The translations under genes were made by a program, and so were the position numbers. Shown piece by piece: positions 4,619 to 37,893 of a stretch of DNA of 64,000 nt (positions are counted from its first letter, which is position 1; each line of letters starts with the position of its first letter). The DNA is taken from NCBI GenBank assembly GCA_036517215.1, contig DATDXF010000016.1, positions 3,175 to 67,174 on the forward strand. Reading direction: 5' to 3'. This DNA comes from Minisyncoccota bacterium. Lineage in GTDB: Bacteria > Patescibacteriota > Minisyncoccia > Phycocordibacterales > UBA9973. A model generated the notes under the pieces. The model was not told where the DNA came from and did not search any database. It was given only the letters and a program-made list of their open reading frames with translations.

Positions 4619-4683
4619 CGTACGGGACACGTTTTTATTATGCTAAAATACCCTACAAGTATAGCATATACCTGTCCCGTTAG
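4619..4683. promoter_or_regulatory. Nested palindrome in divergent pilM/comF promoter region (CGTACGGGACACG ... TATGCTA-N16-TAGCATA ... CCTGTCCCGTTAG)
   Basis: Outer arms ACGGGACA / TGTCCCGT are reverse complements, inner TATGCTA/TAGCATA palindrome; same 9-mer arms recur in the rpmI and rpsZ leaders. Confidence 0.4.
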
Positions 4684-4739
4684 AAATACTCTATGATTAC
4701 AATAAACCACGAAATATTATCAATAAAATTTCTAATGGG

Positions 4740-5402
4740 ATGAGTTTTTTAGACACCATACTTGAGATAATTTTCCCGACAAAATGCGTATTTTGCGGCA
4801 AAAACGGGGACGACCTATGCCTTGAGTGCCTAAGCGGTGCGCCAGCGGCAGAGCGAGAAAGCGCAAAGTGGATATACCCAGTGTATGATTACCGTCATCC
4901 GGCCATTAAAAAATCACTATGGCTACTAAAGTATAAGGGCAAAAAAAGACTTGCCGGTGTTTTTGCGGAAACTCTTTATGAAAAAATTATAGAAGAGTTG
5001 TCCGAATTGTCGGTAATGGAAAATTTCAATCAGCCGATACTGGTTCCCATCCCTCTTGCCTCCGCGAGATACCGGGAAAGGGGGTTCAATCAGTCGGAAT
5101 TGATTTGCAAAGAGCTGATAAAAATAAATGGCGAGCGCCAGTCGGGCATAGAGTTAAAATTGGGGAATAATATCTTAACCAAGACTAAAGACACGGTACA
5201 CCAGGCTCGCATCAAGAACCGGATTGCCCGGCTTAAAAATATTGCCGGAAGTTTCGAGGTAAATAATCCGCTAGCGGTAAAAAGAAAAAACATAATTCTT
5301 ATAGACGATATCTTGACTACCGGAGCCACCCTCACGGAAGCGCGAAAAGTGCTGAAACGCTCCGGGGCGCGAAAAATAATAGCATTCACTTTGGCGCATT
5401 AG
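4740..5402 (+). CDS. comFC: ComF family protein (phosphoribosyltransferase-domain competence protein)
   Basis: N-terminal double CxxC zinc finger (CVFCGKNGDDLCLECL), C-terminal PRTase motif ILIDDILTTGATL. Confidence 0.8.
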   Translation: MSFLDTILEIIFPTKCVFCGKNGDDLCLECLSGAPAAERESAKWIYPVYDYRHPAIKKSLWLLKYKGKKRLAGVFAETLYEKIIEELSELSVMENFNQPILVPIPLASARYRERGFNQSELICKELIKINGERQSGIELKLGNNILTKTKDTVHQARIKNRIARLKNIAGSFEVNNPLAVKRKNIILIDDILTTGATLTEARKVLKRSGARKIIAFTLAH

Positions 5403-16458: not shown

Positions 16459-16544
16459 GGAGAGATGGGTGAGTGGTTTAAACCAACAGTTTACTAAACT
16501 GTCGTCCCCTAAAAGGACCGAGGGTTCGAATCCCTCTCTCACCG
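16459..16544 (+). tRNA. Type II tRNA with apparent anticodon ACU (Ser-like; G73 discriminator, 3-bp D-stem, 17-nt variable arm), CCA not encoded
   Basis: GGAGAGA-TG-GGT-GAGTGGTTTAA-ACC-A-ACAGT-TTACTAA-ACTGT-CGTCCCCTAAAAGGACC-GAGGG-TTCGAAT-CCCTC-TCTCACC-G; acceptor 6/7 (A3:A70 mismatch). Confidence 0.6.
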
Positions 16545-16589
16545 CATTGACAACTTAGTATCGGTGTGTCCTTGTTGCTTATGGCAACA

Positions 16590-27002: not shown

Positions 27003-29309
27003 TTATATCTCACAGACTCCCGAAACACAAGCGAACTCTTTTGCGCCGGTAGTATTGTCCGCAGCTTCGTATTGGGAAAGCTTGGAAAAATCAATTTTAC
27101 CGATAGCCCGTGCGCGTCTTTCGTATTCCTCTTTGGTGATGGCCTCATATGGCGCGAGCTGATATACGTGCTCGGAACGTGGCAAGAACGAGAGTCCGCC
27201 AATCCAGTCCCAGTTTTCATATACGAAATTGCCCACCGCTATCCACTCATCCGGACCCACATATATAGTAGCGGAAGGGTTATGCTCCACGAAATGCTCC
27301 TTAAGCCTTTTCCATTCTTTCATCAGATCCAGAGCGGAAACTTCATCTTTGAAAATAGCTCCTTCCGGCGCTTTGACCGGGAATTCGAGAACGTAGGTCG
27401 TAGCGGTAGATTCTGCCTGGCCGACTTCCGGAAGACAAGGCACCCCTTGGTCGCGGGCCATTTGAAGCAATGTGTCGGTGTGGGAAATTCGCACGCGTCG
27501 TATAAAGTACGGCGCATACCACGGATGCATGCCGGAACCGACGCCGAGGAGCTGGCCCGAGTTGCCGTGAGGTTTTACGCAGGTAATAGCCGTAGAAGCA
27601 TTAATGCCGAAACGCTTGGCGTATTTTTTATTTGTTTCCACGGAGTCCGCCTTCAGCATGTCGAGAACTTTGTCGTCGCGGATGATAGGGTTATCGTAGT
27701 AGCCGGTAAGAGATACGCCGAGCAATCTTTCCGCCTCGCAGTTCTCTTTCCATTTTTTTGAAAGGTAGCCGAAGTTGGTAAGCGTCGACTGATAGGTACC
27801 GAGAAGTGTGGCAAGTTCCATTTTTCTTTTTAGTGTCGCTACGGTATCTTTCGGACGGATTACAATGCTGGTTAAATTACAAAATTGCTTGGAGCGCAAA
27901 TAAATTTCTCCGCAAGGATTGAGTCCCATCTGCCTTTCATCTTTGATGGCCGCCCATCTGCGCGCGGGAACCTGTTTCTCCAGCCCGGCGCGGTTGAAAA
28001 TCCCGCGTTCTCCGGATTTTGATTTTACCAAAGAGGTCCACTCATCCAAAAATTCTTCCGCGCCGGGTTTTGCATTGTAAACCGCGGAGTTGTTTGCCAT
28101 TGAGCGCTGTCCTTCAGTCAGATAAAATTGGCCTTTCTTTGCGTCACGCAATTCCGTATCTTCAAGTTCTGATAGGGAGATGAGCGCGCTCCTCCTCACT
28201 CCACCCGCTACCACTATCATCCCGATCTGGCAGATGATGTCATGCATATCCAAATTGGACAAACGGCGTCCCTGCTTGGCTAAAATTTTGCGTCGCGCAA
28301 AATCCATCAAATCCATGAGTGGTTGTGGTCCGGAAGCGCGTCCTCCTGCTGTTTCCAGCCTCGCCCCTGCCGGACGTATCATAGAGTAATCGAATTTTAC
28401 ATCCTTGCCGTCAAACCAGGACTTAAGACCTAAAACAAAAGCATCAGCCCAGCCTTCTTTGCTGTCTATTACCACGTGTGTAGTGGGCTTTTCTTTGCCC
28501 TGCTTCTTTATTTGCGGAAATTGCTGCACATTTTCCCATTCCACCGCGAAACCAAGCCCGGCGCCGCACATTGATATATACATAATTTCTCCTAGGTCCT
28601 GAGGGCAAGTAGGAGCTATATAAGAACAGTTGTATGCCCAGACATTTGACTGGCGGCAGGCCTTACCTGCGGACCACAGAAGGCGCATGGAGGGACAGAT
28701 ATCTTGGTTCAAAATAGCCTCGCGGACATCGTTGTACTCTTTTGCAGTCAGCTTGTCGCTTATATTTTCTTTCATGTAAGCCATATACCTGTCAACGGAT
28801 TCTATCCACGTCTCGCGGCGGCCAAGCTCCGGAATCCAGCGGGAATAAAATTGGTAGAAAATATATTCGGAATAAGGACTGGAAAAATATTTACTGGACT
28901 CTTCCACCGCCTGCCTGACGGACTCGGAAACAGGGCCGAATGCAGCGCGAAGTTCGGAACGCTTGTTTCGGTAAAGAATGTATTTTTTTGCCGTCTCGGT
29001 AAAACCGTTTTTCATCAATTCTTTCTCCACGAAATCCTGCACTAACTCCACCGTAGGCAAGAACTTTGCCGATTTGTTTTTGCTGACCAGGTCATTCCTG
29101 AGGTCGAGCAAGGTTTTGAAAACACTATTAGCGACAACCTCGGACTTTGCCTCATCCCCTTCCCCTGAAACTTCAAACGCCTTAAAGATTGCGCGGGCAA
29201 CTCTTTCAAGTTCAAAGGGAACAACTTCTCCCGTTCTCCTCCTAATGTATTTTATTTTTGCCAGCTCGCTTTTGGAAATTTTTTCGGTTGTTTTTGTTTT
29301 TGTTGTCAT
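27003..29309 (-). CDS. nrdJ: Adenosylcobalamin-dependent ribonucleoside-triphosphate reductase (class II RNR, monomeric NrdJ type)
   Basis: 768 aa; ATP-cone-like N-terminus, RNR core pattern, C-terminal CVSGVCEI redox pair; adjacent to B12 adenosyltransferase. Confidence 0.7.
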   Translation of the reverse strand: MTTKTKTTEKISKSELAKIKYIRRRTGEVVPFELERVARAIFKAFEVSGEGDEAKSEVVANSVFKTLLDLRNDLVSKNKSAKFLPTVELVQDFVEKELMKNGFTETAKKYILYRNKRSELRAAFGPVSESVRQAVEESSKYFSSPYSEYIFYQFYSRWIPELGRRETWIESVDRYMAYMKENISDKLTAKEYNDVREAILNQDICPSMRLLWSAGKACRQSNVWAYNCSYIAPTCPQDLGEIMYISMCGAGLGFAVEWENVQQFPQIKKQGKEKPTTHVVIDSKEGWADAFVLGLKSWFDGKDVKFDYSMIRPAGARLETAGGRASGPQPLMDLMDFARRKILAKQGRRLSNLDMHDIICQIGMIVVAGGVRRSALISLSELEDTELRDAKKGQFYLTEGQRSMANNSAVYNAKPGAEEFLDEWTSLVKSKSGERGIFNRAGLEKQVPARRWAAIKDERQMGLNPCGEIYLRSKQFCNLTSIVIRPKDTVATLKRKMELATLLGTYQSTLTNFGYLSKKWKENCEAERLLGVSLTGYYDNPIIRDDKVLDMLKADSVETNKKYAKRFGINASTAITCVKPHGNSGQLLGVGSGMHPWYAPYFIRRVRISHTDTLLQMARDQGVPCLPEVGQAESTATTYVLEFPVKAPEGAIFKDEVSALDLMKEWKRLKEHFVEHNPSATIYVGPDEWIAVGNFVYENWDWIGGLSFLPRSEHVYQLAPYEAITKEEYERRARAIGKIDFSKLSQYEAADNTTGAKEFACVSGVCEI

Positions 29310-29314
29310 TTGAT

Positions 29315-29977
29315 TTAATTTATTTTGGGATTAAGGATGTTAATAAGTTCGGCGGATTCTTTTTTTCTCTTCTTTACCAAAAAATTATAAATCCCGGGAG
29401 ACAGCACCAGTGCAAAAGTCACGTTACCCAGGAGATGGAGAGCGGTAAAAGGAATTTGCCCAATCATAGAAGCAAAAAATGACTGATTAAAAAAAATAGG
29501 CCCGACGGTAAGGCCTGTGACTGCGTCAAAGGCAAGCGTACCCATGATTGCAAACTTAACATAATCGCGTACTCCAATATTCTTACCCTTTCCGCCGGAG
29601 GCGGATCCGCCTTTGGCGGAAAAGTAAACCGCGGACCACAAGCCGACGGCTCCGTAGGCTCCGGCCGTGAACAACGTTTGCACACCCACGGTCTGTGTTA
29701 TAAGATCGTAAAGAAAAATAGATAAAACCGCAAAAGAAAATCCCATAAATGCCCCGAAGGCGCGCGAGATCGGCATCGTCGAGGCCATTATCGGTTCTAT
29801 GTTTGGAGCGCGCAGAGGAATCAATCTGATGAGTAAGCACACGACGAGCGCGATGAAAAATTTAAGAGGATATTTAGAATAATTTTTGTTTTCCTGCATC
29901 GGACTATAATAATAATCCATTTCATCCACCAGTAGCAAGTGGATAACCGCCATTTTTACGGCGATTTCGCAGAACAA
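29315..29977 (-). CDS. Polytopic membrane protein, possibly ECF-transporter S component (start uncertain; ATG at 29920 or 29953 plausible)
   Basis: 5-6 TM helices, ~190 aa core; first gene of membrane protein-nrdJ-pduO operon. Confidence 0.4.
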   Translation of the reverse strand: MFCEIAVKMAVIHLLLVDEMDYYYSPMQENKNYSKYPLKFFIALVVCLLIRLIPLRAPNIEPIMASTMPISRAFGAFMGFSFAVLSIFLYDLITQTVGVQTLFTAGAYGAVGLWSAVYFSAKGGSASGGKGKNIGVRDYVKFAIMGTLAFDAVTGLTVGPIFFNQSFFASMIGQIPFTALHLLGNVTFALVLSPGIYNFLVKKRKKESAELINILNPKIN

Positions 29978-30064
29978 TACAAAGATAAACGGAGCACAAG
30001 AGAGACTTCCAAAAACCGAGCATCTATAAGAGGTTTAGAGGGTAAATTTTCGGGTAATTTATTG

Positions 30065-30138
30065 TCCGTCCTCTTGGATTCGAACCAAGGACCCCAGAGG
30101 TATAAGCTCTGTGCTCTAACCAACTGAGCTAAGGACGG
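30065..30138 (-). tRNA. tRNA-Ile (anticodon UAU), CCA not encoded
   Basis: Minus-strand reading CCGTCCT-TA-GCTC-AGTTGGTTA-GAGC-A-CAGAG-CTTATAC-CTCTG-GGGTC-CTTGG-TTCGAAT-CCAAG-AGGACGG-A; all stems pair. Confidence 0.8.
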
Positions 30139-30193
30139 AAAAGAGCTGGCATAAGGATAGGATATATTATTTCCGAACCAAAAACAATATATC

Positions 30194-32116
30194 TTATTCC
30201 GGCTTCGGAGGAGCTATGACTTCTTTCTTCTTCAGAAGAATTCCATGCGCCACGAGTATTTTCTCGTATTCTTCCTGCTCCAGAGTTTCCACTTCTATCA
30301 GCCTGGTAGCTATGGCTGTAAATGCTTTTGTATTTTCCCTGAGGACTCTTTCCGCTGTTTTTAACCCGTCGTTTATTATTCTGGATATTTCCGCATCAAC
30401 TTTGGTGGAAACTGTTTCGGAAAATTCTTTTTCCGGCATCTCGCCGTATTGAGGCCTGCCCGGAGATTCCGCCAAAGCTATCGGGCCGATGACATCGGAC
30501 ATCCCCCATCTCGTAACCATAGCACGGGCGATGTTGGTGGCAACCGTTAGATCACTCGATGGCCCCGTGGTTATGTCTCCGAAAATCATCTGCTCCGCCA
30601 CATATCCCCCGAGCGACATGGCGATGTCGTCAATAAATTCTTTTTTGGACTGAAGGCGTCTTTCTTCGAGCGGAAGCTTGAGCGTGTATCCGCCGGCATT
30701 CCCGCGGGAGATTATGGAAACTTTATGCACCGGGTCGGCATGCGGAAGAACAGAAGCGACTATCGCGTGGCCGGCTTCGTGATAAGCGGTAATTTCTTTT
30801 TCCTTTTTGGAAAGCAAGTGACTTTTTCTTTCGGGGCCGAGCATGACTTTTTCTATGGCGCGAATGAGGTCAAACTGAAAAACTTTCTTGCGGTTCTCTC
30901 TGGCGGCCAGTATCGCGCCTTCGTTCATGAGAGAATACAAATCCGCACCGGAAAATCCCGGAGTTCGTTCCGCAATCAATTTCAAATTTATGTCTTCGGC
31001 AAGAGGTTTTTTTACCGCGTGAATTTTCAGTATTTCTTCTCGGTCAGCGCGGTCCGGCAAGTCGAGGATAACTTTTCTGTCAAAACGTCCCGGTCGGATA
31101 AGCGCAGGGTCGAGAACATCCGGCCTGTTTGTAGCCGCCATCACGATGACCTTGTCGTTCGGCTCAAAGCCGTCCATTTCCACCAATATTTGGTTCAAGG
31201 TTTGCTCGCGCTCATCGTTGCCTCCGCCGAACCCTCCTCCCCTAGTGCGCCCTATCGCGTCTATTTCATCCACGAAGATGATTGCCGGAGCTGCGCGCTT
31301 GGCCATTTTGAAAAGGTCTCGCACACGACTGGCTCCAACCCCGACGAACATTTCCACGAACTCGCTTCCCGAAAGGTGAAAAAACGGCACTCCGGCTTCG
31401 CCGGCTACCGCTCTCGCAAGCAGGGTCTTCCCCGTTCCCGGAGCGCCAGTCAATATTACTCCTTTTGGAATTCTGGCTCCTATATCCAGGAACTTCTTCG
31501 GGCTTTTAAGGAAATCCACTATTTCTTTTAGCTCTTCTTTTGCTTCCTTCGCCCCGGCCACGTCCTTGAAGGTTACTTTATTATTTTTATCGTTGGGGTC
31601 GGTAATACGCGCCTTGGACTGACCGAAGGTAAAAGCCTGCATACCGGCGCCCTTTACCTGGCGGGACAGATACCAAAAGAAAAGCAGGATAAAGATTATC
31701 GGCAAAAGAAACGGCAAGATATTCACGAGCCAAAACATAAAACCGCTTTCGTCTTTTATCTGAATTCCGGTGTTGGACAAGGCCTCGGTCGTCACGCCGT
31801 AATTAAACAGCGTTTGCGAAAGAGCTGAGCCGACTTCCTTCTTCGTTATTTTTACATCATCGTTTTGGTAGGTAATCGTCAGCTTGTCTCCTTCAACCAA
31901 AATATTTTTAACTTCGCCAGCCTGAACACTTTTCGCCAAGTCGGATATCGCGACTTCGGGCACCACCTTTGCATCTCCGGAGACCACCAGGTATAGCGCG
32001 GTAATGAGCATGAAGAAAAATATCGCTCCGGCCAAATTTGTCCCGAAGTTTGTTTTCTTGGGTGTTTTTTTACCTTTACTATTTGGTTCTTTTTGGTTTA
32101 AAAAATTAAAATCCAT
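30194..32116 (-). CDS. ftsH: ATP-dependent zinc metalloprotease FtsH
   Basis: 640 aa; two N-terminal TMs, AAA Walker [18 protein letters not shown] zinc motif. Confidence 0.9.
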
Positions 32117-32394
32117 CCCGTTAGAGATAGGAAGCGCCTAATCTGTTTTTAAGATAACGCTTGCCCATTCCCGATTTTAAGAATAATTCTCTCGACTTCG
32201 CTTTACTTTCTAATAAACACGCTTCGTAGTATATCAAAATAAATGGGCCTCGTCCGTTCGTATATGTAGATAAACCTTTGTTGTGCTGATTCAGGCGCTT
32301 CCGTAGGTCTTGCGTATATCCAGTGTAAATTTTGCCGTCTTTCTTACTTTTTAAGATATATGTGTAATAAAACATAGGTAATCTCTAACGGGAT
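32115..32394. repeat. Perfect 14-bp inverted repeats ATCCCGTTAGAGAT (32115-32128) / ATCTCTAACGGGAT (32381-32394) bracketing the GIY-YIG ORF
   Basis: Seen directly; left arm contains the GIY-YIG stop codon and overlaps the ftsH ATG by 2 nt; right arm starts 5 nt after the GIY-YIG ATG. Confidence 0.6.
32121..32375 (-). CDS. GIY-YIG nuclease-family small protein (UPF0213/YhbQ-like)
   Basis: 84 aa; MFYYTYILKSKKDGKIYTGYT...RLNQHN GIY-YIG core. Confidence 0.7.
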   Translation of the reverse strand: MFYYTYILKSKKDGKIYTGYTQDLRKRLNQHNKGLSTYTNGRGPFILIYYEACLLESKAKSRELFLKSGMGKRYLKNRLGASYL

Positions 32395-32529
32395 CCATAT
32401 TAAAGAGATTAGCACAAAATACTTACAAAGAAAAGTTACCGTTATGCGATTCTGCAAGTATAATGACGCTTTCCGTAATATAAAATTACCGCGCAGAAAA
32501 GTGGAACTTTACCAACAAAAAGATTTACT

Positions 32530-34008
32530 TTACTCTTCTTCTGTTACCGCAGAAGTCTTTGGAAATGCAGCCCCTTGTGACATTGTTAAGTATGGTCTAA
32601 ATATAAAGGGTACCCAATAGGACATTTGAGCTCCTTTTCTTTCTTGTAAAAACCCTATATCAATTAGCTGTCTAACTATATTTATAAAATCATTTAATTC
32701 ATTTCTTTTAAAAAGAGCTTTGATTGACTCGGATGTCTGTTCTGTTTTTTCTCCTCTGAAAACTTCAATATATTTTCTTAATGAAGGATACTCTGACCAC
32801 AAGGTTTCTACGCGTGCTTTTGAAACCTCATCTAATGCTAAGGTCAAAGCGTTTGCACTTATTAAGTGCCCAGATGGGTTGCTCCCCGTTCCACCAATTT
32901 CCCCCAATCTAACTTGTTGCTCTCGGGCAAATTTTATGAGATTTATTACCTCTCTAGGCGCAGGATTTTGTTTTCCATCCTGGGCACGTCTTAATATCCA
33001 ATCAAAAGTTTTTGATTTTTTTGGTCCAGGTTCAACTTGGTCAGGGAAAATTGTATAAAAAGCCCCATCTTGTATCTTCGGATTACCTAATGTATCACGA
33101 CTAAGTTTTGTATATTCCTCTACCGCTCGATTGTTAAAAAAACGACTTAAAATTAAATGCCTTAGGGAATCGGGTGTCCACTTAATGTGATAAAAACGAG
33201 TAATATGACTTTGTTCTCTAAACCCTTGCTCGTGAGTTATTCTTTCCCAAATATCATCTCTTAAAAATATTTTAAGCTTAATATTATTAAAAGAAGCAAA
33301 ATCTAAATATACTCTAAACAAAGACCTTAGAGCAGGTATTTCTACTGATGGTTTAGTAAAAGCAACATCTAATCTATCAAACATAATCCACAACTCAATC
33401 CCAGATTTTTCTAGAATTTCGTCAATTTCTTTTAAAAGACTACGAACTGACACTTTTCCAGCCTTTTCTTCTTCTTGGGTGGGTTCACCAAGAACCACCG
33501 AATAAGTTGACCCATCTGGCAATCCTACTGTAGGCTGTAATCTTGAAATATATTCTAGAGCACCTCTAAAAATTTTTTGTAGACCTTCAAGTGGAATAAG
33601 CCCTTCTTCTTTAAGACGTTCCAAAATTGGCTTGAATTTATCTTTGTTCTTTTCATCTCTGTTTATAGAGTTTCCAATTAACGATAAGATATAAATCTTC
33701 CAAAGACTTCTAAACTCGTCTTCACTCAATCCTTTCTCGTTTACAGACTGAAATACAGGATCGCCTGAAATTTCTTCACCTGGAATTAAATAGATATTTC
33801 TTTTAAATAAATTTGGTGCATTTTTTTGGAGAAGAAGGTAAAGAGCGCTTTTTCCTGTTCCTTTTCCGCCATAAATTATATCAAAACGACCCTGGTTTAA
33901 CATTTCCCAAGCTTCTGTTTTAATAAAGTAATTTTCAAGCTCTTTTTGTTCTCTTTCTGCAACACTTTCGCCTAAATCTATTCTTTTTAGTATCTCTAAA
34001 TTATTCAT
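32530..34008 (-). CDS. P-loop NTPase (AAA-like ATPase with long Walker A to Walker B spacing)
   Basis: 492 aa; Walker A IIYGGKGTGKSALYLL near N-terminus, Walker B-like LWIMFDRLD ~160 aa later; ~280 aa C-terminal domain of unknown function. Confidence 0.55.
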   Translation of the reverse strand: MNNLEILKRIDLGESVAEREQKELENYFIKTEAWEMLNQGRFDIIYGGKGTGKSALYLLLQKNAPNLFKRNIYLIPGEEISGDPVFQSVNEKGLSEDEFRSLWKIYILSLIGNSINRDEKNKDKFKPILERLKEEGLIPLEGLQKIFRGALEYISRLQPTVGLPDGSTYSVVLGEPTQEEEKAGKVSVRSLLKEIDEILEKSGIELWIMFDRLDVAFTKPSVEIPALRSLFRVYLDFASFNNIKLKIFLRDDIWERITHEQGFREQSHITRFYHIKWTPDSLRHLILSRFFNNRAVEEYTKLSRDTLGNPKIQDGAFYTIFPDQVEPGPKKSKTFDWILRRAQDGKQNPAPREVINLIKFAREQQVRLGEIGGTGSNPSGHLISANALTLALDEVSKARVETLWSEYPSLRKYIEVFRGEKTEQTSESIKALFKRNELNDFINIVRQLIDIGFLQERKGAQMSYWVPFIFRPYLTMSQGAAFPKTSAVTEEE

Positions 34009-34134
34009 TTTTCCAAATATTAAATGCTATTAACACACAATACTCTTTTTTATCCTCTATGTAAATAACTCCTAGCATTCCTTGAAAAACCTGTAAAGTA
34101 AGTTTGAGATGTACAGAAATTTGGCACAGGTAAT

Positions 34135-34419
34135 TTACTCGCCGTCAGTTCTGGAAAGCTTTGTTGGTATGCCCTTTCTGTATAAATCTACCAGTTTTTC
34201 TTTTTTATCCCTGCGCCATTTTTTAATTTGAATTTCCCTTGAACGAGCTTCTTTTAGAGAATTTTGATTTTCGAGAAAAACTATTTCAAACTTGTCACGA
34301 TTCTTAGTGAAACCTGCGCCCTGATTAGTATTATGTTCTTTTAATCTTCTTTGTGGGTTATCTGTAACACCTATGTATAAATTCCCATATGAATTTTTTA
34401 TCATATATACGAAATACAT
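34135..34419 (-). CDS. GIY-YIG nuclease-family small protein (UPF0213/YhbQ-like), second copy
   Basis: 94 aa; MYFVYMIKNSYGNLYIGVTDNPQRRLKEHN. Confidence 0.7.
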   Translation of the reverse strand: MYFVYMIKNSYGNLYIGVTDNPQRRLKEHNTNQGAGFTKNRDKFEIVFLENQNSLKEARSREIQIKKWRRDKKEKLVDLYRKGIPTKLSRTDGE

Positions 34420-34565
34420 AATTTAATTATATGCCCGTTCGACATGCCCTTCAACTTCGTTCAGGGCAAGCTCAGGGCACTCGCCTCAAAATACCCTTAG
34501 AGTTCCTTGGGTGTTTTTGCTGTGGCTTGCCACGAGCGAATTTTGTCACTACAAAATGAGTCGAG

Positions 34566-34963
34566 TGGAGATGACGGGAATCGAACCCGTGTGCAAAAGG
34601 TTTTTGCAAAGAAGTCTACATGCTTAGCGAGCTTTTTTGTTTAGATTAAAAAATTCTTAAGCGGGCCAAATATTTTTTAACCGAGTTCTAAGTTTTCGAA
34701 AAATGTTCGAACGGGCATTTCCTTATCCCGATAATATTACACCTCTACTCATATATCGGAAGTCTATGAGAGAGACGCCGGCACTCGCTTACGCGAAAGC
34801 TGGAACGAAAGCAAAGTCCTTCATACCGAAGTAATCAGAAACAATTGCTTTAGTTTTGGTAGTCAATTTTGCAATTAACATTTGAACGAATTTTCACGAG
34901 ATTACGTTCATGCTCGACATGCATCAATAGCAAAGCGACCTTCTGTCTATGCCTTGCATCCCC
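34566..34963 (-). ncRNA. ssrA: tmRNA (transfer-messenger RNA)
   Basis: 5' GGGGAUG pairs 7/7 with 3' CAUCUCC-A including G3:U70 alanine identity pair; T-arm ACGGG-UUCGAUU-CCCGU; in-frame GCA resume codon at nt 92 then 27 sense codons ending GCU-UUC-GCG-UAA (..PAFA); smpB immediately upstream on same strand. Confidence 0.8.
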
Positions 34964-34970
34964 CTGAATT

Positions 34971-35042
34971 AGCTTCTAGTAGCTAGTGGCTAGTTTCTAG
35001 TATTTTTCTAGAACCTAGAACCTAACCCCTAAAACCTAACCT
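34971..35042. repeat. CTAG-rich ~70-nt intergenic repeat between smpB and ssrA
   Basis: Multiple CTAG, TAGCTTCTAG and AACCTAG units; homologous in inverted orientation to 53078-53137. Confidence 0.6.
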
Positions 35043-35045
35043 TTG

Positions 35046-35492
35046 TCAACGTTCCTTGAAATCTCTCCGTAGCTCGCGGTCAGTTTCGCGTTTTTTGATG
35101 GTTTCCCGTTTATCGAATTTTTTCTTGCCTTTAACGAGAGCGATCGCTACTTTGATCTTCCTGTTTTTATTATACACCGAAATTGGCACAATTGTCAAAC
35201 TCTTATTCTTTTCGCTTCCCGCCAGCTCCGCAATCTCTTTTTTTGTGAGCAATATCTTCCGGTTGCGGAGCGGGTCGTAGTCTTTCGGAGCGTTTTTAGG
35301 CTGAAACGGTGGTATATTAGCATTGATTAAAAACGCCTCCCCGCCTCTTATTATGACGAAAGCCCCCTCCAGGGACATGTGTCCTCCCCTGACGGACTTT
35401 ACCTCCGTGCCAAAAAGCTCAATACCACTTTCGTATTTTTCCACGGTTTCGTAGTTAAAGCGGGCTTTTCTATTTTCCGCATAATTCGCCAT
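35046..35492 (-). CDS. smpB: SsrA-binding protein SmpB
   Basis: 148 aa; KARFNYET..E.YE.GIEL.GTEVKS.R SmpB signature. Confidence 0.85.
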   Translation of the reverse strand: MANYAENRKARFNYETVEKYESGIELFGTEVKSVRGGHMSLEGAFVIIRGGEAFLINANIPPFQPKNAPKDYDPLRNRKILLTKKEIAELAGSEKNKSLTIVPISVYNKNRKIKVAIALVKGKKKFDKRETIKKRETDRELRRDFKER

Positions 35493-35557
35493 AAATTAAT
35501 CTTAACATAAGTAGCTAAGACTAGTGCTCTAATTTGAAAATAATATATTAAGACAGT

Positions 35558-36583
35558 TTATTCCCTAACAATCCCGTCTCCGGGAGGCACCACCAGGTAG
35601 GTCATGAGGCATCCGGTTATCCCGGAGATAACAATCATCCCTGCCCATGTGTGTACTGCCCACGGAGTCGTGTCTGTCAGTAAAATTGTCACAACATAAG
35701 TTGTAAATAAAATAACCGGCGCGAATATTCCGAAAATCCTTATGTGATGCTCTTTCAAAGAAAGTGAGTAAACTTTTCTATACAGAAAATCAATCAAAAT
35801 ACCCGCAAGGAGAGCGGTCAATATGAATATGTAATATTCTCCGTGCATTAAAGTTATGGCAACGGCATTAAGGGTTAAGATTACCGCAAAACTTCCAAAG
35901 GGAAAAGCCCAATACCTGATGCTTGCCAGGATTAATCCCATGAAAATACTGGTAAACACTATCGCGCCGGCGACTCCGAGCGCCGCCCCGTAATTAATAT
36001 TGATAGGATTTTCATTCAAAAAACTTTGCGCCATCCATGGAAAATTAAACGGGTGTAAAAACTGAAGCATGAATCCAAGGGTCATTAAGAGATAAGAGAA
36101 AGATAGTATTACCGGAATTTTATGTATCTTTTGGGTTGACCTGTTTCTGTACCATATGGCGTGAATCGGTGCGCTTACTACAACGGCGCCGCCGAAAGCA
36201 AGAAGTATATGGGTAGGGCTAAGGAGCGCTTCTATCCCGACTTCTATTCCAAATAACTGATGCCACATTAAATCTCCCGGACCGCCGATAAAAACCAGCA
36301 ATACCCCCCAGAGGGCAAACATATATTCTCGTGGCAACGCACGCCTCCACGCGTAACCTATTTTGTGATTTCTCCACATCTGAGTTAAAAGTAAGAAAGT
36401 AGTCGTAAGTATCCCTAAATAGAAAATCGCATGCCACGGCGTAAGCACTGTTTCTAGAGCAGAATCCAGGTGAGTATGAGCCCAGCCGTCCACAAAACCT
36501 CCGGCTGTCCACCAGCCGGAAAACAATACAAATAACCAGTCAAATAAATTGCTTGAAGGGGCATATCCGATTTTCTTTTCCAT
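35558..36583 (-). CDS. Polytopic membrane protein (hypothetical)
   Basis: 341 aa, ~9 TM helices, Trp/His-rich loops. Confidence 0.5.
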   Translation of the reverse strand: MEKKIGYAPSSNLFDWLFVLFSGWWTAGGFVDGWAHTHLDSALETVLTPWHAIFYLGILTTTFLLLTQMWRNHKIGYAWRRALPREYMFALWGVLLVFIGGPGDLMWHQLFGIEVGIEALLSPTHILLAFGGAVVVSAPIHAIWYRNRSTQKIHKIPVILSFSYLLMTLGFMLQFLHPFNFPWMAQSFLNENPININYGAALGVAGAIVFTSIFMGLILASIRYWAFPFGSFAVILTLNAVAITLMHGEYYIFILTALLAGILIDFLYRKVYSLSLKEHHIRIFGIFAPVILFTTYVVTILLTDTTPWAVHTWAGMIVISGITGCLMTYLVVPPGDGIVRE

Positions 36584-36680
36584 ATGGCGCTATTATATCA
36601 TAGTCTTAGTTGACTTTAAGCCTGAAATACGCTACTATCCTGTAGTAGTCAAAGGCCTTATCGGCCTTACTTTATATCAA

Positions 36681-37184
36681 TTGCGTGAACGAATAAACAA
36701 CCAAATACGGGCGAAGGAGGTTAGGGTTTTAGATAGTGAAAATAAAAATCTCGGTGTTTTAAGCATAAGAGATGCTCTGGAACTCGCACAGAGTAAGGAT
36801 TTGGATTTAATCGAAATATCCCCTAACAGCAACCCTCCGATCGCCAAGATAATGGATTTCGGAAAGTACCAGTACGAAGCCGCAAAGAAACTTAAAAAAG
36901 CCAAGGCCGGCTCCAATAAAACGGAAACGAAATCAATTCAGATAAAGATAGGCACCGGAGACCACGACCTGGAATTAAAAGCGAAAACTGCATCCAAGTG
37001 GATAAAGGAAGGGCACAGGATAAAAGTTGAACTTTTCTTGGCCGGCAGGGCGAAGTATATGGATGAAAAGTTTTTACGGGAAAGGTTGGATAGAGTTTTG
37101 CATTTGATTACCGAAAACTATAAAGTATCAGATACATATAAAAAAGGTCCGAAAGGTTTAACCATAACAATAGAGAAAAAATAA
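36681..37184 (+). CDS. infC: Translation initiation factor IF-3 (non-ATG start; TTG at 36681 or unusual start upstream)
   Basis: INNQIRAKEVRVLD...LDLIEISPNSNPPIAKIMDFGKYQYE IF-3 N- and C-domains; track ORF from 36549 overlaps the upstream gene. Confidence 0.75.
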   Translation: MRERINNQIRAKEVRVLDSENKNLGVLSIRDALELAQSKDLDLIEISPNSNPPIAKIMDFGKYQYEAAKKLKKAKAGSNKTETKSIQIKIGTGDHDLELKAKTASKWIKEGHRIKVELFLAGRAKYMDEKFLRERLDRVLHLITENYKVSDTYKKGPKGLTITIEKK

Positions 37185-37187
37185 AAC

Positions 37188-37257
37188 CTGTCCCGTACTA
37201 AATTTTTGATTACGGGACATAATGATAAAGATTATTAATTAAAATTTTAGTACTGGG
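37188..37257 (+). promoter_or_regulatory. Conserved ~70-nt leader upstream of rpmI: hairpin TGTCCCGTA-N13-TACGGGACA plus pre-start segment complementary to the 5' arm
   Basis: 70/74 nt identical to the minus-strand leader of rpsZ at 55262-55335. Confidence 0.55.
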
Positions 37258-37452
37258 ATGAAAGGAATGAAAACAAATAAATCGTTTAGCAAGAGACTGA
37301 AGCTTACAAAGAGCGGAAAGATTCTTTCCCGCAAGGCTGGCTTCAACCACTTCAACGCGAAACAATCAAGGAGCTCGCAGCTTGCCGGACGCAAGGGAGT
37401 CAGCTTTACCATCAAGAACAAGCCTAAGAGCCATCTATTACCCTTCAACTAA
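37258..37452 (+). CDS. rpmI: 50S ribosomal protein L35
   Basis: 64 aa, MKGMKTNKSFSKRLKLTKSGK. Confidence 0.85.
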   Translation: MKGMKTNKSFSKRLKLTKSGKILSRKAGFNHFNAKQSRSSQLAGRKGVSFTIKNKPKSHLLPFN

Positions 37453-37513
37453 AAGCTTTACTTTTAGTTCGGGCGAAAATTTATAAATTTTTTAGCCATT
37501 TAATTAAAACAAC

Positions 37514-37858
37514 ATGACAAGAGTAAAAAAGGGAGTACACGCGTTAAAAAGAAGGAGAAGCGTATTAAAACAAACGAAGGGCATGCGCCACGGCAGGAGC
37601 ACAAAGGAGCGCCAGGCAAAGGAAGCTCTCTTGCACGCCGGCAATTATTCTTTCGCCCACAGGAAGGATAAGAAATCACACAACCGCAAACTTTGGAATA
37701 TCAAGATAAACGCCGGAGCCCGCGAGCTTGGAATGTCTTACTCAAAGCTCATCGGAGCGCTGAAAAAGAAAAATATAGAGCTGGACCGAAAAATCCTTTC
37801 CGGCCTGGCCGAGCACAACCCTAAAACTTTCGCCAAAATACTGGAAACTGTAAAATAA
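37514..37858 (+). CDS. rplT: 50S ribosomal protein L20
   Basis: 114 aa, MTRVKKGVHALKRRR... L20 pattern. Confidence 0.9.
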   Translation: MTRVKKGVHALKRRRSVLKQTKGMRHGRSTKERQAKEALLHAGNYSFAHRKDKKSHNRKLWNIKINAGARELGMSYSKLIGALKKKNIELDRKILSGLAEHNPKTFAKILETVK

Positions 37859-37866
37859 TAAAAAAA

Positions 37867-37893
37867 CCCCGAGACAACCTCGGGGGTTTTTTT
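37867..37893. terminator. Rho-independent terminator CCCCGAG-ACAAC-CTCGGGG + T7 (A-run on other side; bidirectional)
   Basis: Seen directly after rplT stop and after the convergent minus-strand gene. Confidence 0.8.

What the first reader, a model, noticed from the sequence alone, without database searches (positions are those of the whole stretch)
32121..34560. GIY-YIG / P-loop ATPase / GIY-YIG segment immediately 3' of ssrA - candidate tmRNA-site island or ATPase-nuclease defence locus
The 3' end of ssrA is a classic island integration site. Here it is followed by a GIY-YIG gene, a 492-aa P-loop NTPase with widely spaced Walker A/B and an uncharacterised 280-aa C-domain, and a second GIY-YIG gene. 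ATPase plus small nuclease is the logic of several defence systems (Septu, Gabija, PARIS), but GIY-YIG partners of this ATPase type are not described.
Basis: inference. Interest (0 to 1): 0.5.

Follow-up and report, generated by a model that had tools for sequence, protein, structure and literature searches.

The report
Three separate inserts beside the tmRNA gene
The stretch after the tmRNA gene of this Nomurabacteria genome is not one three-gene defence system but three independent inserts: a solitary ATPase from a family with one proven anti-phage member, and two tiny GIY-YIG nuclease genes, one of which sits in a 276-bp inverted-repeat mobile element that lands exactly on gene start codons and appears not to have been described.

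Summary
On the minus strand the order is smpB, ssrA, GIY-YIG (94 aa), P-loop ATPase (492 aa), GIY-YIG (84 aa), ftsH.

The segment is a real insertion. In 33 related Nomurabacteria genomes with the same gene order, the ssrA-ftsH gap is 45-104 bp in 15 and holds unrelated cargo in 18. Here it is 2446 bp and GC-poor (0.35 against 0.43). No integrase or duplicated ssrA end is present.

The three genes are not a system:
- **ATPase.** It belongs to NCBIfam's Sll1717 family (211 bits, cutoff 75). E. coli DS-41, a single-gene system experimentally shown to block phages, also passes that model. The fold is ORC/Cdc6/STAND-like, with no nuclease domain. Homologues in six other genomes are solitary and have unrelated neighbours.
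- **GIY-YIG next to ssrA.** It recurs next to ssrA in relatives that lack the ATPase.
- **GIY-YIG next to ftsH.** It lies in a 276-bp element with perfect 12-nt terminal inverted repeats, inserted at the ftsH ATG with ATGGA duplicated. A metagenome scan found 91 such elements, both gene-carrying and gene-less. Sixty unique copies abut an ATG, and 86% of the evaluable ones (37 of 43) open a long reading frame.

The defence reading of the ATPase is plausible but untested. The start-codon element is the surprising part.

The parts
34563..34963 (-). ssrA (tmRNA), intact. Its 3' end is the left border of the inserted segment.
   Evidence: Rfam RF00023 at 133 bits over the full model, and ARAGORN.
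34115..34562 (-). GIY-YIG unit B. It comprises a structured ~145-nt trailer that starts at the ssrA 3' end (CCACTCGACTC ... GAGGCGAGTG plus GC-rich hairpins), its own promoter, the ORF, and ~20 conserved nt after the stop.
   Evidence: This block aligns with L045, L029, L028 and L073, and similarity ends ~20 nt after the stop (A2). The special trailer occurs only in loci that have this gene or its remnant.
34426..34454 (-). Promoter-like site for GIY-YIG B (TTGAAG-17-TATAAT). The -10 hexamer ends 6 nt before the ATG, so the mRNA looks leaderless.
   Evidence: Consensus scan, 10 of 12 matches; sequence.
34135..34419 (-). GIY-YIG B: 94 aa, a minimal Slx1-like (UPF0213) GIY-YIG nuclease.
   Evidence: PF01541 E 9e-18. 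Closest solved relatives are BH0048 (1zg2) and EF2693 (1ywl), then Slx1. Orthologues at 61-80% identity sit right after ssrA in L028, L029, L045 and L073.
32530..34008 (-). Solitary Sll1717-family AAA+ ATPase, 492 aa: NTPase core with a helical insert between Walker A and B, then a lid and a winged-helix-like C-terminus. Candidate single-gene anti-phage protein.
32399..32437 (-). Displaced ancestral ftsH promoter (…TTTTGTGCTAATCTCTTTAAT), now upstream of the GIY-YIG A element.
   Evidence: The same motif lies directly before the ftsH ATG in empty-site relatives L018, L032, L033, L035, L036 and L044.
32394..32398 (-). Upstream copy of the duplicated target ATGGA, followed by a T at 32393.
   Evidence: Sequence. 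The same 5-nt duplication plus T is seen in metagenome copies.
32117..32392 (-). GIY-YIG A element, 276 bp. It has perfect 12-nt terminal inverted repeats CCCGTTAGAGAT / ATCTCTAACGGG (32381-32392 and 32117-32128) and is inserted exactly at the ftsH start codon.
   Evidence: Exact repeat pair: 3 matches at up to 1 mismatch against 0.3 expected. The same element is in L067 at the ftsH ATG, at 90.6% nt identity against 73% for ftsH and smpB. A metagenome scan found 91 repeat-bounded elements.
32121..32375 (-). GIY-YIG A: 84 aa, a minimal Slx1-like GIY-YIG nuclease. Its stop codon TAA lies inside the right inverted repeat, 4 nt before the ftsH ATG.
   Evidence: PF01541 E 2e-17; 1zg2 and 1ywl. Fifteen full-length metagenome elements encode 84-86 aa homologues.
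32112..32116 (-). Downstream copy of ATGGA, which is the working ftsH start codon.
30194..32116 (-). ftsH, the right border. In empty-site relatives it starts 45-104 bp after ssrA.
4676..4740 (+). Second, gene-less and degenerate copy of the same element (65 bp; CCCGTTAGAAAT … ATTTCTAATGGG). It abuts the ATG at 4741 of an ORF that looks ComF-like from its first residues (my reading, no tool result).

Best explanation
The 2.45 kb between ssrA and ftsH is a patchwork of three independently acquired selfish or accessory units, sitting in an intergenic spot that is repeatedly invaded in Candidatus Nomurabacteria.

1. **Unit B.** A ~450-bp unit abuts the ssrA 3' end. It carries a minimal Slx1-like GIY-YIG nuclease gene with its own promoter. 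It recurs, patchily, at exactly this place in other Nomurabacteria. Its behaviour as a homing-type selfish gene for the ssrA flank is inferred.

2. **The ATPase.** This is a solitary Sll1717-family AAA+ ATPase with an ORC/Cdc6/STAND-like build: nucleotide-binding core, lid, winged helix, and no enzymatic effector domain. E. coli DS-41, a single gene shown experimentally to protect against several phages, passes the same NCBIfam subfamily model. It most likely works alone as an anti-phage protein. My inference is that a phage component is sensed through the helical and winged-helix part, which triggers ATP-dependent oligomerisation on nucleic acid, and this blocks phage replication or aborts the infection. 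Only the family membership and the fold are shown; the mechanism is inferred.

3. **Unit A.** A 276-bp element consists of little more than 12-nt terminal inverted repeats and an 84-aa Slx1-like GIY-YIG gene. It is inserted precisely at the ftsH start codon with duplication of ATGGA, so the ftsH promoter now drives GIY-YIG A and then ftsH, whose ATG follows the nuclease stop codon by 4 nt.
   - The element belongs to a widespread family of gene-carrying and gene-less (MITE-like) copies that sit at start codons of many different genes.
   - Structure, duplication, empty sites, multiple copies per genome and lateral spread are shown.
   - That the small nuclease itself cuts at the repeat or hairpin and at ATG targets is inferred.
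For: **Insertion and hotspot**
- Among 33 relatives with smpB > ssrA > ftsH, the gap is 45-104 bp in 15 and 164-2375 bp in 18. It is 2446 bp in the window.
- The cargo differs from genome to genome: GIY-YIG genes, and ORFs that by my reading of the translations (no domain search) look like membrane proteins, a trypsin-like protease, pilins and kinases.
- GC is 0.349 for the segment against 0.431 for the window.

**Independence of the three genes**
- No ATPase homologue occurs in the 80 relatives' loci.
- GIY-YIG B orthologues lie right after ssrA in L028, L029, L045 and L073, with a remnant in L066.
- GIY-YIG A at 93% aa identity sits at the ftsH ATG in L067, where ftsH is divergent from smpB.
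- ATPase homologues at 76%, 69%, 58% and ~40% identity in six genomes lie among unrelated genes.
- DNA similarity to the closest ones is confined to the coding sequence.

**ATPase identity**
- NF047389 scores 210.8 bits against a cutoff of 75.
- The first 399 of DS-41's 502 residues score 92 bits on the same model, aligned over positions 1-341.
- DS-41 (AAA2, WP_033812887.1) is a single 502-aa gene validated against BASEL phages (PMC13092281 and its supplementary files).
- PDC-M28C gives 4.9e-20.
- The gene is GC-poorer than its surroundings in all seven genomes.
- The family is sparse: 365 clusters at E <= 1e-30 among 1.84 billion representatives, and most of the 150 best hits are ~480-520 aa.

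**Element A**
- The repeat pair is exact.
- Of 131 metagenome matches to a 14-mer from one end, 97 have the partner repeat 42-279 bp away.
- Sixteen of the 91 elements are 274-279 bp, and fifteen of those encode GIY-YIG A homologues.
- Sixty unique copies abut an ATG. The outward ORF has a median of 170 codons, against 17 for random ATGs.
- The 5-nt duplication is exact in 31 of 60. The base between the duplicate and the repeat is T in 59 of 60.
- Several contigs, the window itself and L067 hold two copies at different genes.
- The empty ftsH site is seen in relatives.
- The element is 90.6% identical between the window and L067, against 73% for the flanking ftsH and smpB.
Against: - No experiment exists for this ATPase. 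It scores far below the DS-41 equivalog cutoff (52.5 against 370), so it is a distant cousin rather than an orthologue. A profile-to-single-sequence hhalign gave only 17% probability.
- The family has no recognisable effector domain, so the mechanism is guesswork.
- In two of the three closest CPR homologue loci a small nuclease-like gene follows the ATPase: a DpnI-like gene (plus a GIY-YIG gene two genes further on) in L001, and a gene hitting Pfam PF02594 (PF1765-like; a YraN-type endonuclease family by my recollection) in L005. A loose 'ATPase plus any small nuclease' pairing is therefore not fully excluded.
- All strains with identical SmpB carry the whole segment, so no presence/absence polymorphism was seen within the species.
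- For the element, transposition has not been observed. About a quarter of copies have other flanks (GTAAAC), and about a third of the ATG-flanked copies lack a clean duplication.
- The borders and mobility of unit B are not resolved.
Confidence: 0.7

Rival explanations
1. A three-gene (or two-gene) ATPase-nuclease defence system, in which the AAA+ ATPase senses infection and the flanking GIY-YIG proteins are its nuclease effectors.
For: The genes are adjacent, on the same strand, and jointly GC-poor. The ATPase has no effector domain of its own. Nuclease-like genes follow the ATPase in L001 and L005. The whole block is conserved in all strains with identical SmpB.
Against: The parts occur separately. 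GIY-YIG B occurs with ssrA and GIY-YIG A with ftsH in genomes without the ATPase. The ATPase occurs without GIY-YIG genes in L005, L008, L098, L099 and L100. GIY-YIG A lies inside its own repeat-bounded element, which is found at many other genes. Each gene has its own promoter-like site and spacer. DS-41 works as a single gene (PMC13092281). PADLOC gave no hits to known ATPase-nuclease systems.
Confidence: 0.06
2. A classical integrase-mediated genomic island or prophage remnant integrated into the 3' end of ssrA.
For: It lies immediately 3' of ssrA, has foreign GC, and relatives have empty sites. Unit B begins exactly at the ssrA end with a conserved trailer.
Against: There is no integrase or recombinase ORF between smpB and the ribonucleotide reductase gene. 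No direct repeat of the ssrA 3' end was found; the best is a chance-level 16-mer. The segment is only 2.4 kb and composite. There are no phage hits. The cargo in relatives is single genes, not islands.
Confidence: 0.04
3. The ATPase is not a defence gene. It could be another kind of accessory AAA+ protein, for example a DNA-binding regulator or loader of a mobile element (TnsC/MuB-like), or an ORC/Cdc6-like replication or partition factor.
For: The structural neighbours include TnsC, MuB, Cdc6/ORC and DnaA. It sits between two mobile GIY-YIG units. In L001 it follows ParA-ParB. No experiment exists for this branch of the family.
Against: No transposase or replicon genes accompany it in seven contexts. 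Its sporadic distribution, low GC relative to the host and a validated anti-phage relative in the same subfamily fit defence better. It is rare on plasmids and absent from phages.
Confidence: 0.2
4. The GIY-YIG genes are ordinary housekeeping repair nucleases (prokaryotic Slx1 orthologues), and the inverted repeats are regulatory hairpins rather than transposon ends.
For: Prokaryotic stand-alone Slx1-like proteins were proposed to be vertically inherited repair enzymes (PMC1564403). The protein sequences are well conserved.
Against: Presence is patchy among close relatives. Flanking duplications of the target are present, gene-less derivatives with the same ends exist, several copies occur per genome at unrelated genes, and empty sites are seen. 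The element is 90.6% identical between genomes whose flanking genes are 73% identical.
Confidence: 0.05

Closest known systems
DS-41 (AAA2, WP_033812887.1), a single-gene anti-phage system of E. coli found with DefensePredictor (PMC13092281); NCBIfam NF053860
   Same: It is a single ~500-aa protein. It passes the same NCBIfam subfamily model, NF047389 Sll1717 (92 bits for the first 399 residues). By eye the motif order is the same (GxGKS ... hhhhDxLD ... SPRE), and by eye it has no fused effector domain.
   Different: It is only a distant relative. The window protein scores 52.5 bits on the DS-41 equivalog model against a cutoff of 370. The host is a CPR bacterium, not E. coli, and nothing has been tested for this branch.
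PADLOC candidate system PDC-M28 (component C)
   Same: The ATPase matches PDC-M28C at E 4.9e-20 over residues 187-443.
   Different: The match is partial. PADLOC gave no PDC-M28 hits on the two flanking GIY-YIG proteins (other neighbours were not scanned). PDC systems are untested candidates.
Archaeal 'Arch_ATPase' AAA+ proteins (SSO1545 2fna, PAB2304 2qen; Pfam PF01637) and ORC/Cdc6; STAND and defence ATPases (Apaf-1/CED-4, Avs, BrxC, RdrA)
   Different: Sequence identity is 9-14%. The Pfam PF01637 score is below cutoff (17.6 against 33.2). There is a long helical insert between Walker A and B. There is no sensor repeat domain or effector as in Avs, and no partner genes as in BREX or RADAR.
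Prokaryotic stand-alone Slx1-like GIY-YIG proteins (UPF0213: BH0048 1zg2, EF2693 1ywl)
   Same: Both window proteins are closest to these (E 7.5e-10 to 1e-5). They are the minimal catalytic domain only, and my reading of the sequences finds no C-terminal Asn region, as described for this branch (PMC1564403).
   Different: Those proteins were viewed as vertically inherited repair enzymes. Here the genes are patchy, one is framed by inverted repeats and target duplications, and gene-less derivatives exist.
Free-standing GIY-YIG homing endonuclease genes (such as phage T4 Seg proteins and I-TevI-type enzymes)
   Same: Both are selfish GIY-YIG nuclease genes that occupy intergenic DNA and spread laterally into the same site in related genomes.
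   Different: Homing enzymes carry DNA-binding domains and long recognition sites, and leave no inverted repeats or target duplications. This element has 12-nt inverted repeats, a 4-5-nt ATG duplication, many unrelated targets and MITE-like derivatives.
Hairpin-dependent small mobile DNAs (IS200/IS605 with TnpA; REP elements with RAYT) and MITEs
   Same: These are very small elements. Conserved ends sit next to a covarying subterminal hairpin, non-autonomous copies are abundant, and a single tiny gene is carried.
   Different: The enzyme here is a GIY-YIG nuclease rather than a HUH or DDE transposase. A target duplication is present, which IS200/IS605 elements lack. The target is the start codon.
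tmRNA-site genomic islands
   Same: The insertion is immediately 3' of ssrA, the base composition is foreign, and occupancy varies among relatives.
   Different: There is no integrase, no direct repeat of the ssrA end, the size is only kilobase-scale, and the inserts are composite and unrelated.

Membership tests
P-loop ATPase, Sll1717 family (NCBIfam NF047389) | HMM score at or above the curated cutoff (75 bits) over most of the model | tested here: met
   210.8 bits; residues 12-461 align to model positions 1-422 of 454.
P-loop ATPase, Sll1717 family (NCBIfam NF047389) | Intact Walker A and Walker B motifs | tested here: met
   G47, K49, G50, G52, K53, S54 and D211, R212, L213, D214 are invariant in the 42-sequence alignment A1.
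DS-41 anti-phage protein (NCBIfam NF053860, equivalog) | HMM score at or above the curated cutoff (370 bits) | tested here: not met
   52.5 bits, with the best stretch covering residues 16-76 only.
DS-41 anti-phage protein (NCBIfam NF053860, equivalog) | Protection against phage as a single gene | not testable with these tools
   Shown for E. coli DS-41 only (PMC13092281).
PADLOC PDC-M28 candidate system | All components (A, B, C) present in one locus | tested here: not met
   Only a partial PDC-M28C match on the ATPase. The two flanking GIY-YIG proteins gave no PDC-M28 hits. Other neighbours were not scanned.
Septu / Gabija / PARIS (ATPase-nuclease defence systems) | Profile matches to the system's ATPase and nuclease components | tested here: not met
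   No such PADLOC hits at E <= 0.1 for any of the three proteins.
tmRNA-site integrative island | Integrase or recombinase gene within the insert | tested here: not met
   ORF list for 29000-38000: only GIY-YIG, ATPase and GIY-YIG lie between ssrA and ftsH.
tmRNA-site integrative island | Direct repeat of the ssrA 3' end at the distal border | tested here: not met
   No such repeat found. The best direct repeat is 16 nt (15/16), lies in the ssrA-trailer terminator and in ftsH codons, and I judge it chance.
tmRNA-site integrative island | Insert absent from the same site in relatives, and deviant base composition | tested here: met
   Fifteen of 33 relatives have a 45-104 bp gap. GC is 0.349 against 0.431.
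GIY-YIG nuclease superfamily (Pfam PF01541), Slx1-like minimal branch | Pfam score above cutoff, with closest relatives being UPF0213/Slx1 | tested here: met
   63.5 and 64.7 bits against a cutoff of 22.6. 1zg2 and 1ywl are the top hits, followed by Slx1.
GIY-YIG nuclease superfamily (Pfam PF01541), Slx1-like minimal branch | Conserved catalytic-core residues (the two Tyr motifs, Arg, Glu) | tested here: met
   The Y-x-Y, Y-T/I-G, LRKR, HN, YYE and RE..LK motifs are kept in GIY-YIG A and 15 element-borne homologues (alignment). The equivalents are visible in GIY-YIG B. Assigning roles to these residues rests on knowledge of the family, not on a test here.
Inverted-repeat, target-duplicating DNA transposon (with MITE-like derivatives) | Terminal inverted repeats | tested here: met
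   A perfect 12-nt pair in the window. The partner repeat is present for 97 of 131 metagenome matches.
Inverted-repeat, target-duplicating DNA transposon (with MITE-like derivatives) | Target-site duplication, and an empty site in relatives | tested here: met
   ATGGA occurs on both sides in the window, while relatives have a single ATGGA at the ftsH start. The 5-nt duplication is exact in 31 of 60 unique copies and matches at 4 of 5 or better in 37 of 60.
Inverted-repeat, target-duplicating DNA transposon (with MITE-like derivatives) | Several copies per genome at different sites, and non-autonomous derivatives | tested here: met
   The window has two copies (32117-32392 and 4676-4740). L067 has two, and contigs L108, L128, L132, L156 and L201 have two each. 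Seventy-five of 91 elements are 42-213 bp with no long ORF.
Inverted-repeat, target-duplicating DNA transposon (with MITE-like derivatives) | The encoded protein catalyses excision and integration | not testable with these tools
   Needs biochemistry or a genetic transposition assay.

The most novel reading that the evidence does not exclude
The 276-bp unit at the ftsH start codon represents an undescribed class of prokaryotic mobile DNA. It would be the smallest autonomous inverted-repeat element known to me: 12-nt repeats, a subterminal hairpin and an 84-86-aa Slx1-like GIY-YIG nuclease as its only gene. It would be mobilised by that nuclease rather than by a DDE, HUH, serine or tyrosine enzyme, and it would insert specifically at start codons. 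The insertion duplicates ATG(NN), so the host gene keeps a start codon and becomes translationally coupled to the nuclease gene (the TGA or TAA stop overlaps or abuts the host ATG). It has spawned large numbers of gene-less MITE-like copies in CPR bacteria. The GIY-YIG gene glued to the ssrA 3' end may be a second such lineage with a different target.
Probability: 0.45. Interest if true: 0.8.

Novelty: new variant of a known kind. Interest (0 to 1): 0.6.

Why it matters
**The locus as flagged.** The result corrects a tempting 'ATPase plus nuclease' reading. Adjacency in a hotspot is not a system.

**The ATPase.** It extends the Sll1717/DS-41 family into ultra-small CPR bacteria, whose defence repertoire is poorly known. 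It gives a compact candidate for testing how an AAA+ protein with no effector domain stops phages.

**The start-codon element.**
- If confirmed, it would add a nuclease family to the short list of enzymes that move DNA transposons.
- It would show a way for a parasite to insert into tiny, gene-dense genomes without killing genes: land on the ATG, rebuild it, and borrow the host promoter.
- It could explain many stray 'GIY-YIG family protein' annotations and mis-called gene starts in CPR genomes.
- A small nuclease with ATG-proximal targeting could also interest tool builders.

Tried and rejected
- **att-like repeat.** The repeat finder over 29900-35600 gave only short matches. I set aside the 16-nt 15/16 repeat (32054-32069 and 34503-34518) because one copy is part of the ssrA-trailer terminator and the other is ftsH codons; my own estimate puts it near chance.
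- **PDB by sequence for the ATPase.** No hit.
- **hhalign of the family profile against the single DS-41 sequence.** Only 17% probability. I relied instead on the NCBIfam HMMs.
- **Rfam at relaxed threshold over 31900-35100.** Nothing besides tmRNA. Weak tmRNA_permuted and S15 hits were dismissed.
- **Repeats bracketing the ATPase module.** No direct or inverted repeat of 9 nt or more was found between its upstream and downstream spacers. Similarity to the closest homologues' DNA ends at the coding sequence.
- **Plasmid and phage collections.** Six weak plasmid hits and no phage hits.
- **Literature.** Searches for Sll1717, PDC-M28, YhbQ plus GIY-YIG, GIY-YIG with MITE or transposase, target-site duplication, and CPR found nothing describing this locus type or element. 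The library is incomplete, so this is not proof of novelty.
- **Frame constraint on gene-less copies.** I looked for a 3-nt periodicity in their lengths, which would show that the upstream duplicate ATG must read into the TAA of the right repeat. The lengths listed show none (by eye, no formal test).
- **Whole-element hairpin.** Folding of the small copies is only modestly better than shuffled-interior controls (median z -1.5). The signal is the subterminal hairpin, not a full palindrome.
- **Ends of GIY-YIG unit B.** I found only short direct GGCGAGT repeats and an inverted match to the ssrA end, and could not define the ends.
- **Discarded number.** A third-codon-position identity printed for GIY-YIG A was computed out of frame, so I ignored it.

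Full report
**1. What is there**

On the minus strand the window reads as follows:
- smpB (35492-35046)
- ssrA (34963-34563; Rfam tmRNA 133 bits)
- a 94-aa GIY-YIG gene, here 'B' (34419-34135)
- a 492-aa P-loop ATPase (34008-32530)
- an 84-aa GIY-YIG gene, here 'A' (32375-32121)
- ftsH (32116-30194)
- tRNA-Ile

Both small proteins match Pfam GIY-YIG well above cutoff. The ATPase has Walker A at residues 47-54 and Walker B at 207-214. GC falls to 0.32-0.37 across 32000-34500 against 0.42-0.52 on both sides; the segment is 0.349 against 0.431 for the window.

**2. Organism and the empty site**

SmpB relatives retrieved from one genome per species are all Candidatus Nomurabacteria or Paceibacterota, that is Patescibacteria/CPR.

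I located smpB, ssrA, ftsH and the three query genes in the 80 loci. Thirty-three have the window's order smpB > ssrA > ftsH.
- In 15 of them ftsH starts 45-104 bp after ssrA.
- In 18 the gap is 164-2375 bp.
- In the window it is 2446 bp.

The gap contents differ from genome to genome. They include small GIY-YIG genes and ORFs that, from reading the translations (no domain search was run), look like membrane proteins, a trypsin-like protease, pilin-like proteins and kinase-like proteins. So the ssrA-ftsH spacer is a repeatedly invaded spot, and the window's segment is an insertion.

It is not a classical tmRNA island:
- No integrase ORF lies in the interval.
- No copy of the ssrA 3' end lies at the far border.
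- Strains with identical SmpB from several samples all carry the same arrangement, so no within-species polymorphism was seen.

**3. The three genes are not one system**

- None of the 80 relatives' loci contains a homologue of the ATPase.
- GIY-YIG B orthologues (61-80% identity) sit right after ssrA in L028, L029, L045 and L073, with a remnant in L066.
- They come with a conserved ~145-nt structured trailer that starts at the ssrA end and is found only where this gene is present.
- Their identities do not track SmpB identity: L045 is 80% for GIY-YIG B and 83% for SmpB, while L028 is 61% and 87%. The closest relatives, L018 and L019 (91% SmpB), lack the gene. That fits lateral spread or repeated loss.
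- GIY-YIG A occurs at 93% identity directly before ftsH in L067, where ftsH is divergent from smpB.
- Of 13 GIY-YIG ORFs in the relatives' ~16-kb loci, 10 lie within about 500 nt of ssrA (my count from the coordinates). The window itself has only these two in 64 kb.
- ATPase homologues at 76%, 69%, 58% and ~40% identity in six other genomes lie among unrelated genes:
  - after ParA-ParB (L001)
  - before a PF02594-family gene and an efflux operon (L005)
  - after the BipA gene (L008)
  - among ABC-transporter genes in Paenibacillus (L098)
  - between chorismate synthase and peptide deformylase genes (L099)
  - before the CTP synthase gene (L100)
- DNA similarity to the closest homologues stops at the coding sequence, and no repeats bracket the gene.

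**4. The ATPase**

*Family.* NCBIfam places it in the 'P-loop ATPase, Sll1717 family' (NF047389, 210.8 bits, cutoff 75). It also hits the equivalog model of the anti-phage protein DS-41 far below cutoff (52.5 against 370) and PADLOC candidate PDC-M28C (E 4.9e-20).

*DS-41.* DS-41 (working name AAA2, WP_033812887.1) is a single 502-aa E. coli gene that the DefensePredictor study validated against several BASEL phages (PMC13092281, main text and supplementary files). The 399 residues of it printed in the supplement score 92 bits on the Sll1717 model, above cutoff, aligned over model positions 1-341. So both proteins belong to one curated subfamily, although they are distant from each other.

*Fold.* An AlphaFold model built on 42 homologues is confident (pLDDT 87, pTM 0.82).
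- The build is a P-loop core with a helical insert, a lid and a C-terminal winged-helix-like unit.
- No nuclease or other effector fold is present.

*Distribution.*
- The family is sparse: 1754 clusters at E <= 1e-3 and 365 at E <= 1e-30 among 1.84 billion representatives.
- Most of the 150 best hits are ~480-520 aa.
- It is rare on plasmids and absent from the phage collection.
- The gene is GC-poorer than its surroundings in all seven genomes examined.

*Reading.* Taken together, this is an accessory, laterally moving, stand-alone AAA+ gene, and defence is its best-supported role. The mechanism (sensing, ATP-driven assembly on nucleic acid, then a block to phage replication or abortive infection) is inference from the fold and from how related STAND/ORC-like defence ATPases work.

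**5. GIY-YIG A is a tiny mobile element at the ftsH start codon**

*Structure in the window.* Reading the minus strand:

…TTTTGTGCTAATCTCTTTAAT | ATGGA T | CCCGTTAGAGAT tacct ATG … (84 codons) … tcct ATCTCTAACGGG | ATGGA TTTTAAT… (ftsH)

- The 12-nt inverted repeats are perfect (32381-32392 and 32117-32128). There are 3 matches in the window at up to 1 mismatch against 0.3 expected.
- The promoter-like motif that sits directly before the ftsH ATG in empty-site relatives is now upstream of the element.
- ATGGA is present on both sides.
- The GIY-YIG A stop codon lies inside the right repeat, 4 nt before the ftsH ATG.

*Other copies among the loci already fetched.*
- L067 has the same element at the ftsH ATG.
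- L067 also has a 117-bp gene-less copy abutting another ATG that opens a reading frame.
- L085 has a ~120-bp gene-less copy at its ftsH ATG.

*Metagenome scan.* I scanned metagenome contigs for a 14-mer from one end, chosen so that it did not include the flank.
- Of 131 matches, 97 have the partner repeat 42-279 bp away, giving 91 distinct elements.
- Sixteen are 274-279 bp. Fifteen of these encode 84-86-aa homologues of GIY-YIG A that differ at many positions but keep the conserved motifs.
- The rest are 42-213 bp with no long ORF, like MITEs.

*Start-codon targeting.*
- Sixty unique copies abut an ATG.
- The reading frame running outward from that ATG has a median of 170 codons. It reaches 60 codons or more in 86% of cases, against a median of 17 and 20% for random ATGs in the same contigs.
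- The 5 nt ATGNN are duplicated exactly on the far side in 31 of 60 copies and at 4 of 5 or better in 37 of 60. By my reading of the flanks listed, several more show a 4-nt ATGN duplication.
- The base between the duplicate and the repeat is T in 59 of 60.
- The host start is ATGAA in 37 of 60.

*Translational coupling.* From the repeat sequence and the conserved …LSLT ending of most full-length copies, I infer that the nuclease ORF runs through the right repeat and stops at a TGA overlapping the host ATG (ATGA). That is a translational-coupling layout; I did not check it copy by copy.

*Further features.*
- Small copies share a covarying GC-rich hairpin right after the repeat.
- Several contigs hold two copies at different genes.
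- The window holds a second, degenerate 65-bp copy at 4676-4740, abutting the ATG at 4741.
- Between the window and L067 the element is 90.6% identical in DNA, while ftsH and smpB are 73%. The element therefore spread laterally into the same site.
- About a quarter of copies have a different flank, GTAAAC on both sides, sometimes in tandem arrays. This is unexplained.

*Protein family.* Both GIY-YIG proteins are closest to the minimal bacterial Slx1-like proteins BH0048 and EF2693. An earlier survey regarded that branch as vertically inherited repair enzymes (PMC1564403). I found no paper describing bacterial GIY-YIG elements with inverted repeats and target duplications, but the searchable library is incomplete.

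**6. Most likely working model, and its status**

*Shown:*
- the insertion hotspot
- the independence of the three units
- ATPase family membership and fold
- the element's structure, its duplications, its preference for start codons, the gene-less derivatives and lateral spread

*Inferred:*
- that the ATPase defends against phages on its own
- that the Slx1-like nuclease, from a structure-specific nuclease family, recognises the repeat or hairpin and cuts at ATG targets to move the element
- that host genes stay expressed through the displaced promoter and coupling to the nuclease ORF
- that unit B homes to the ssrA flank

*Rivals.* These are a three-gene defence system, an integrase island, a non-defence role for the ATPase, and housekeeping GIY-YIG genes. 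Each is weighed in its own entry. Only 'the ATPase has another role' keeps appreciable weight.

**7. Verdict**

The ATPase is a new member of a known, only recently validated kind. The proposed ATPase plus GIY-YIG system is not supported. The most interesting result lies in a detail of the flagged segment: the compact GIY-YIG inverted-repeat element that targets start codons. It looks like a new variant of mobile GIY-YIG genes, and possibly a new class of transposable element.

Noticed in passing
window 4676-4740 (+), ATG at 4741: A second, gene-less and degenerate copy (65 bp) of the CCCGTTAGAGAT inverted-repeat element. It directly abuts the start codon of an ORF beginning MSFLDTILEIIFPTKCVFCG…, which looks ComF-like to me (no tool result). 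The two repeats carry matching G-to-A changes, and no clean target duplication is visible.
   Followed up: partly
L101-L220 (for example L108 1253-1440, L111, L125, L129, L130, L176): About a quarter of the repeat-bounded elements are flanked not by ATG but by GTAAAC (or GTTTAC) on both sides, sometimes as tandem arrays separated by GTAAAC. This could be a second target class or nesting inside another repeat.
   Followed up: no
L105-L215 small elements; window 32129-32175: Right after the 12-nt repeat the elements carry a GC-rich hairpin (AGG-stem-loop-stem-CC) whose stem sequence differs between copies while pairing is kept. In gene-carrying copies it overlaps the conserved C-terminal GMGKRYLKNRL coding region.
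   Followed up: partly
window 34530-34562 and 34455-34470; L022, L039, L077 just after ssrA: The last bases of ssrA plus the first trailer bases are matched by a reverse-complementary stretch just upstream of the GIY-YIG gene. The pair changes together between genomes: CACTCGACTC/GAGGCGAGTG here, CCACTTCTAC/GTAGAAGTG in L039, CACTGCTTC/GAAGCAGTG in L077, and CACCACTTC/GAAGTGGTG in L022. This could be a long-range stem or element ends. It is unexplained.
   Followed up: partly
window 34430-34442 versus 34707-34719: There is 12 of 13 nt complementarity between the DNA just upstream of the GIY-YIG B promoter (GTCGAACGGGCAT) and the tmRNA region where ARAGORN places the start of the tag reading frame (ATGCCCGTTCGAA). 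It may be chance.
   Followed up: no
L018, L032, L033, L035, L036, L044 (ssrA-ftsH spacer); window 32399-32437 and 34426-34454: In empty-site relatives an extended -10-like motif (TGTGCTAATAT) ends about 7 nt before the ftsH ATG, and the GIY-YIG B TATAAT ends 6 nt before its ATG. These genes therefore look leaderless, which may bear on why an element that rebuilds the ATG is tolerated.
   Followed up: no
L001 7539-8986; L005 1638-1991: In two of the three closest CPR homologue loci the ATPase is followed by small nuclease-like genes. L001 has a DpnI-like gene, then a 186-aa ORF with no Pfam hit, then a 135-aa GIY-YIG gene. L005 has a gene hitting Pfam PF02594 (PF1765-like; a YraN-type endonuclease family by my recollection). 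The pattern is not seen in the four other contexts.
   Followed up: partly
L001, L005, L008, L098, L099, L100 and window 32530-34008: In all seven genomes the Sll1717-family ATPase gene has 4-13 points lower GC than its surrounding locus, whatever the host GC (0.34 to 0.67).
   Followed up: partly
window 16459-16545 (+) and 30064-30138 (-): ARAGORN calls a tRNA-Ser with anticodon ACT, lying divergent from a tRNA-Ser(GCT), and a tRNA-Ile with anticodon TAT next to ftsH. Both anticodons are unusual for bacteria.
   Followed up: no
L043 7877-8206, L047 8398-8727, L092 8457-8732: In three relatives a small GIY-YIG gene sits between smpB and ssrA instead of after ssrA. Both flanks of ssrA therefore attract these genes.
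   Followed up: no
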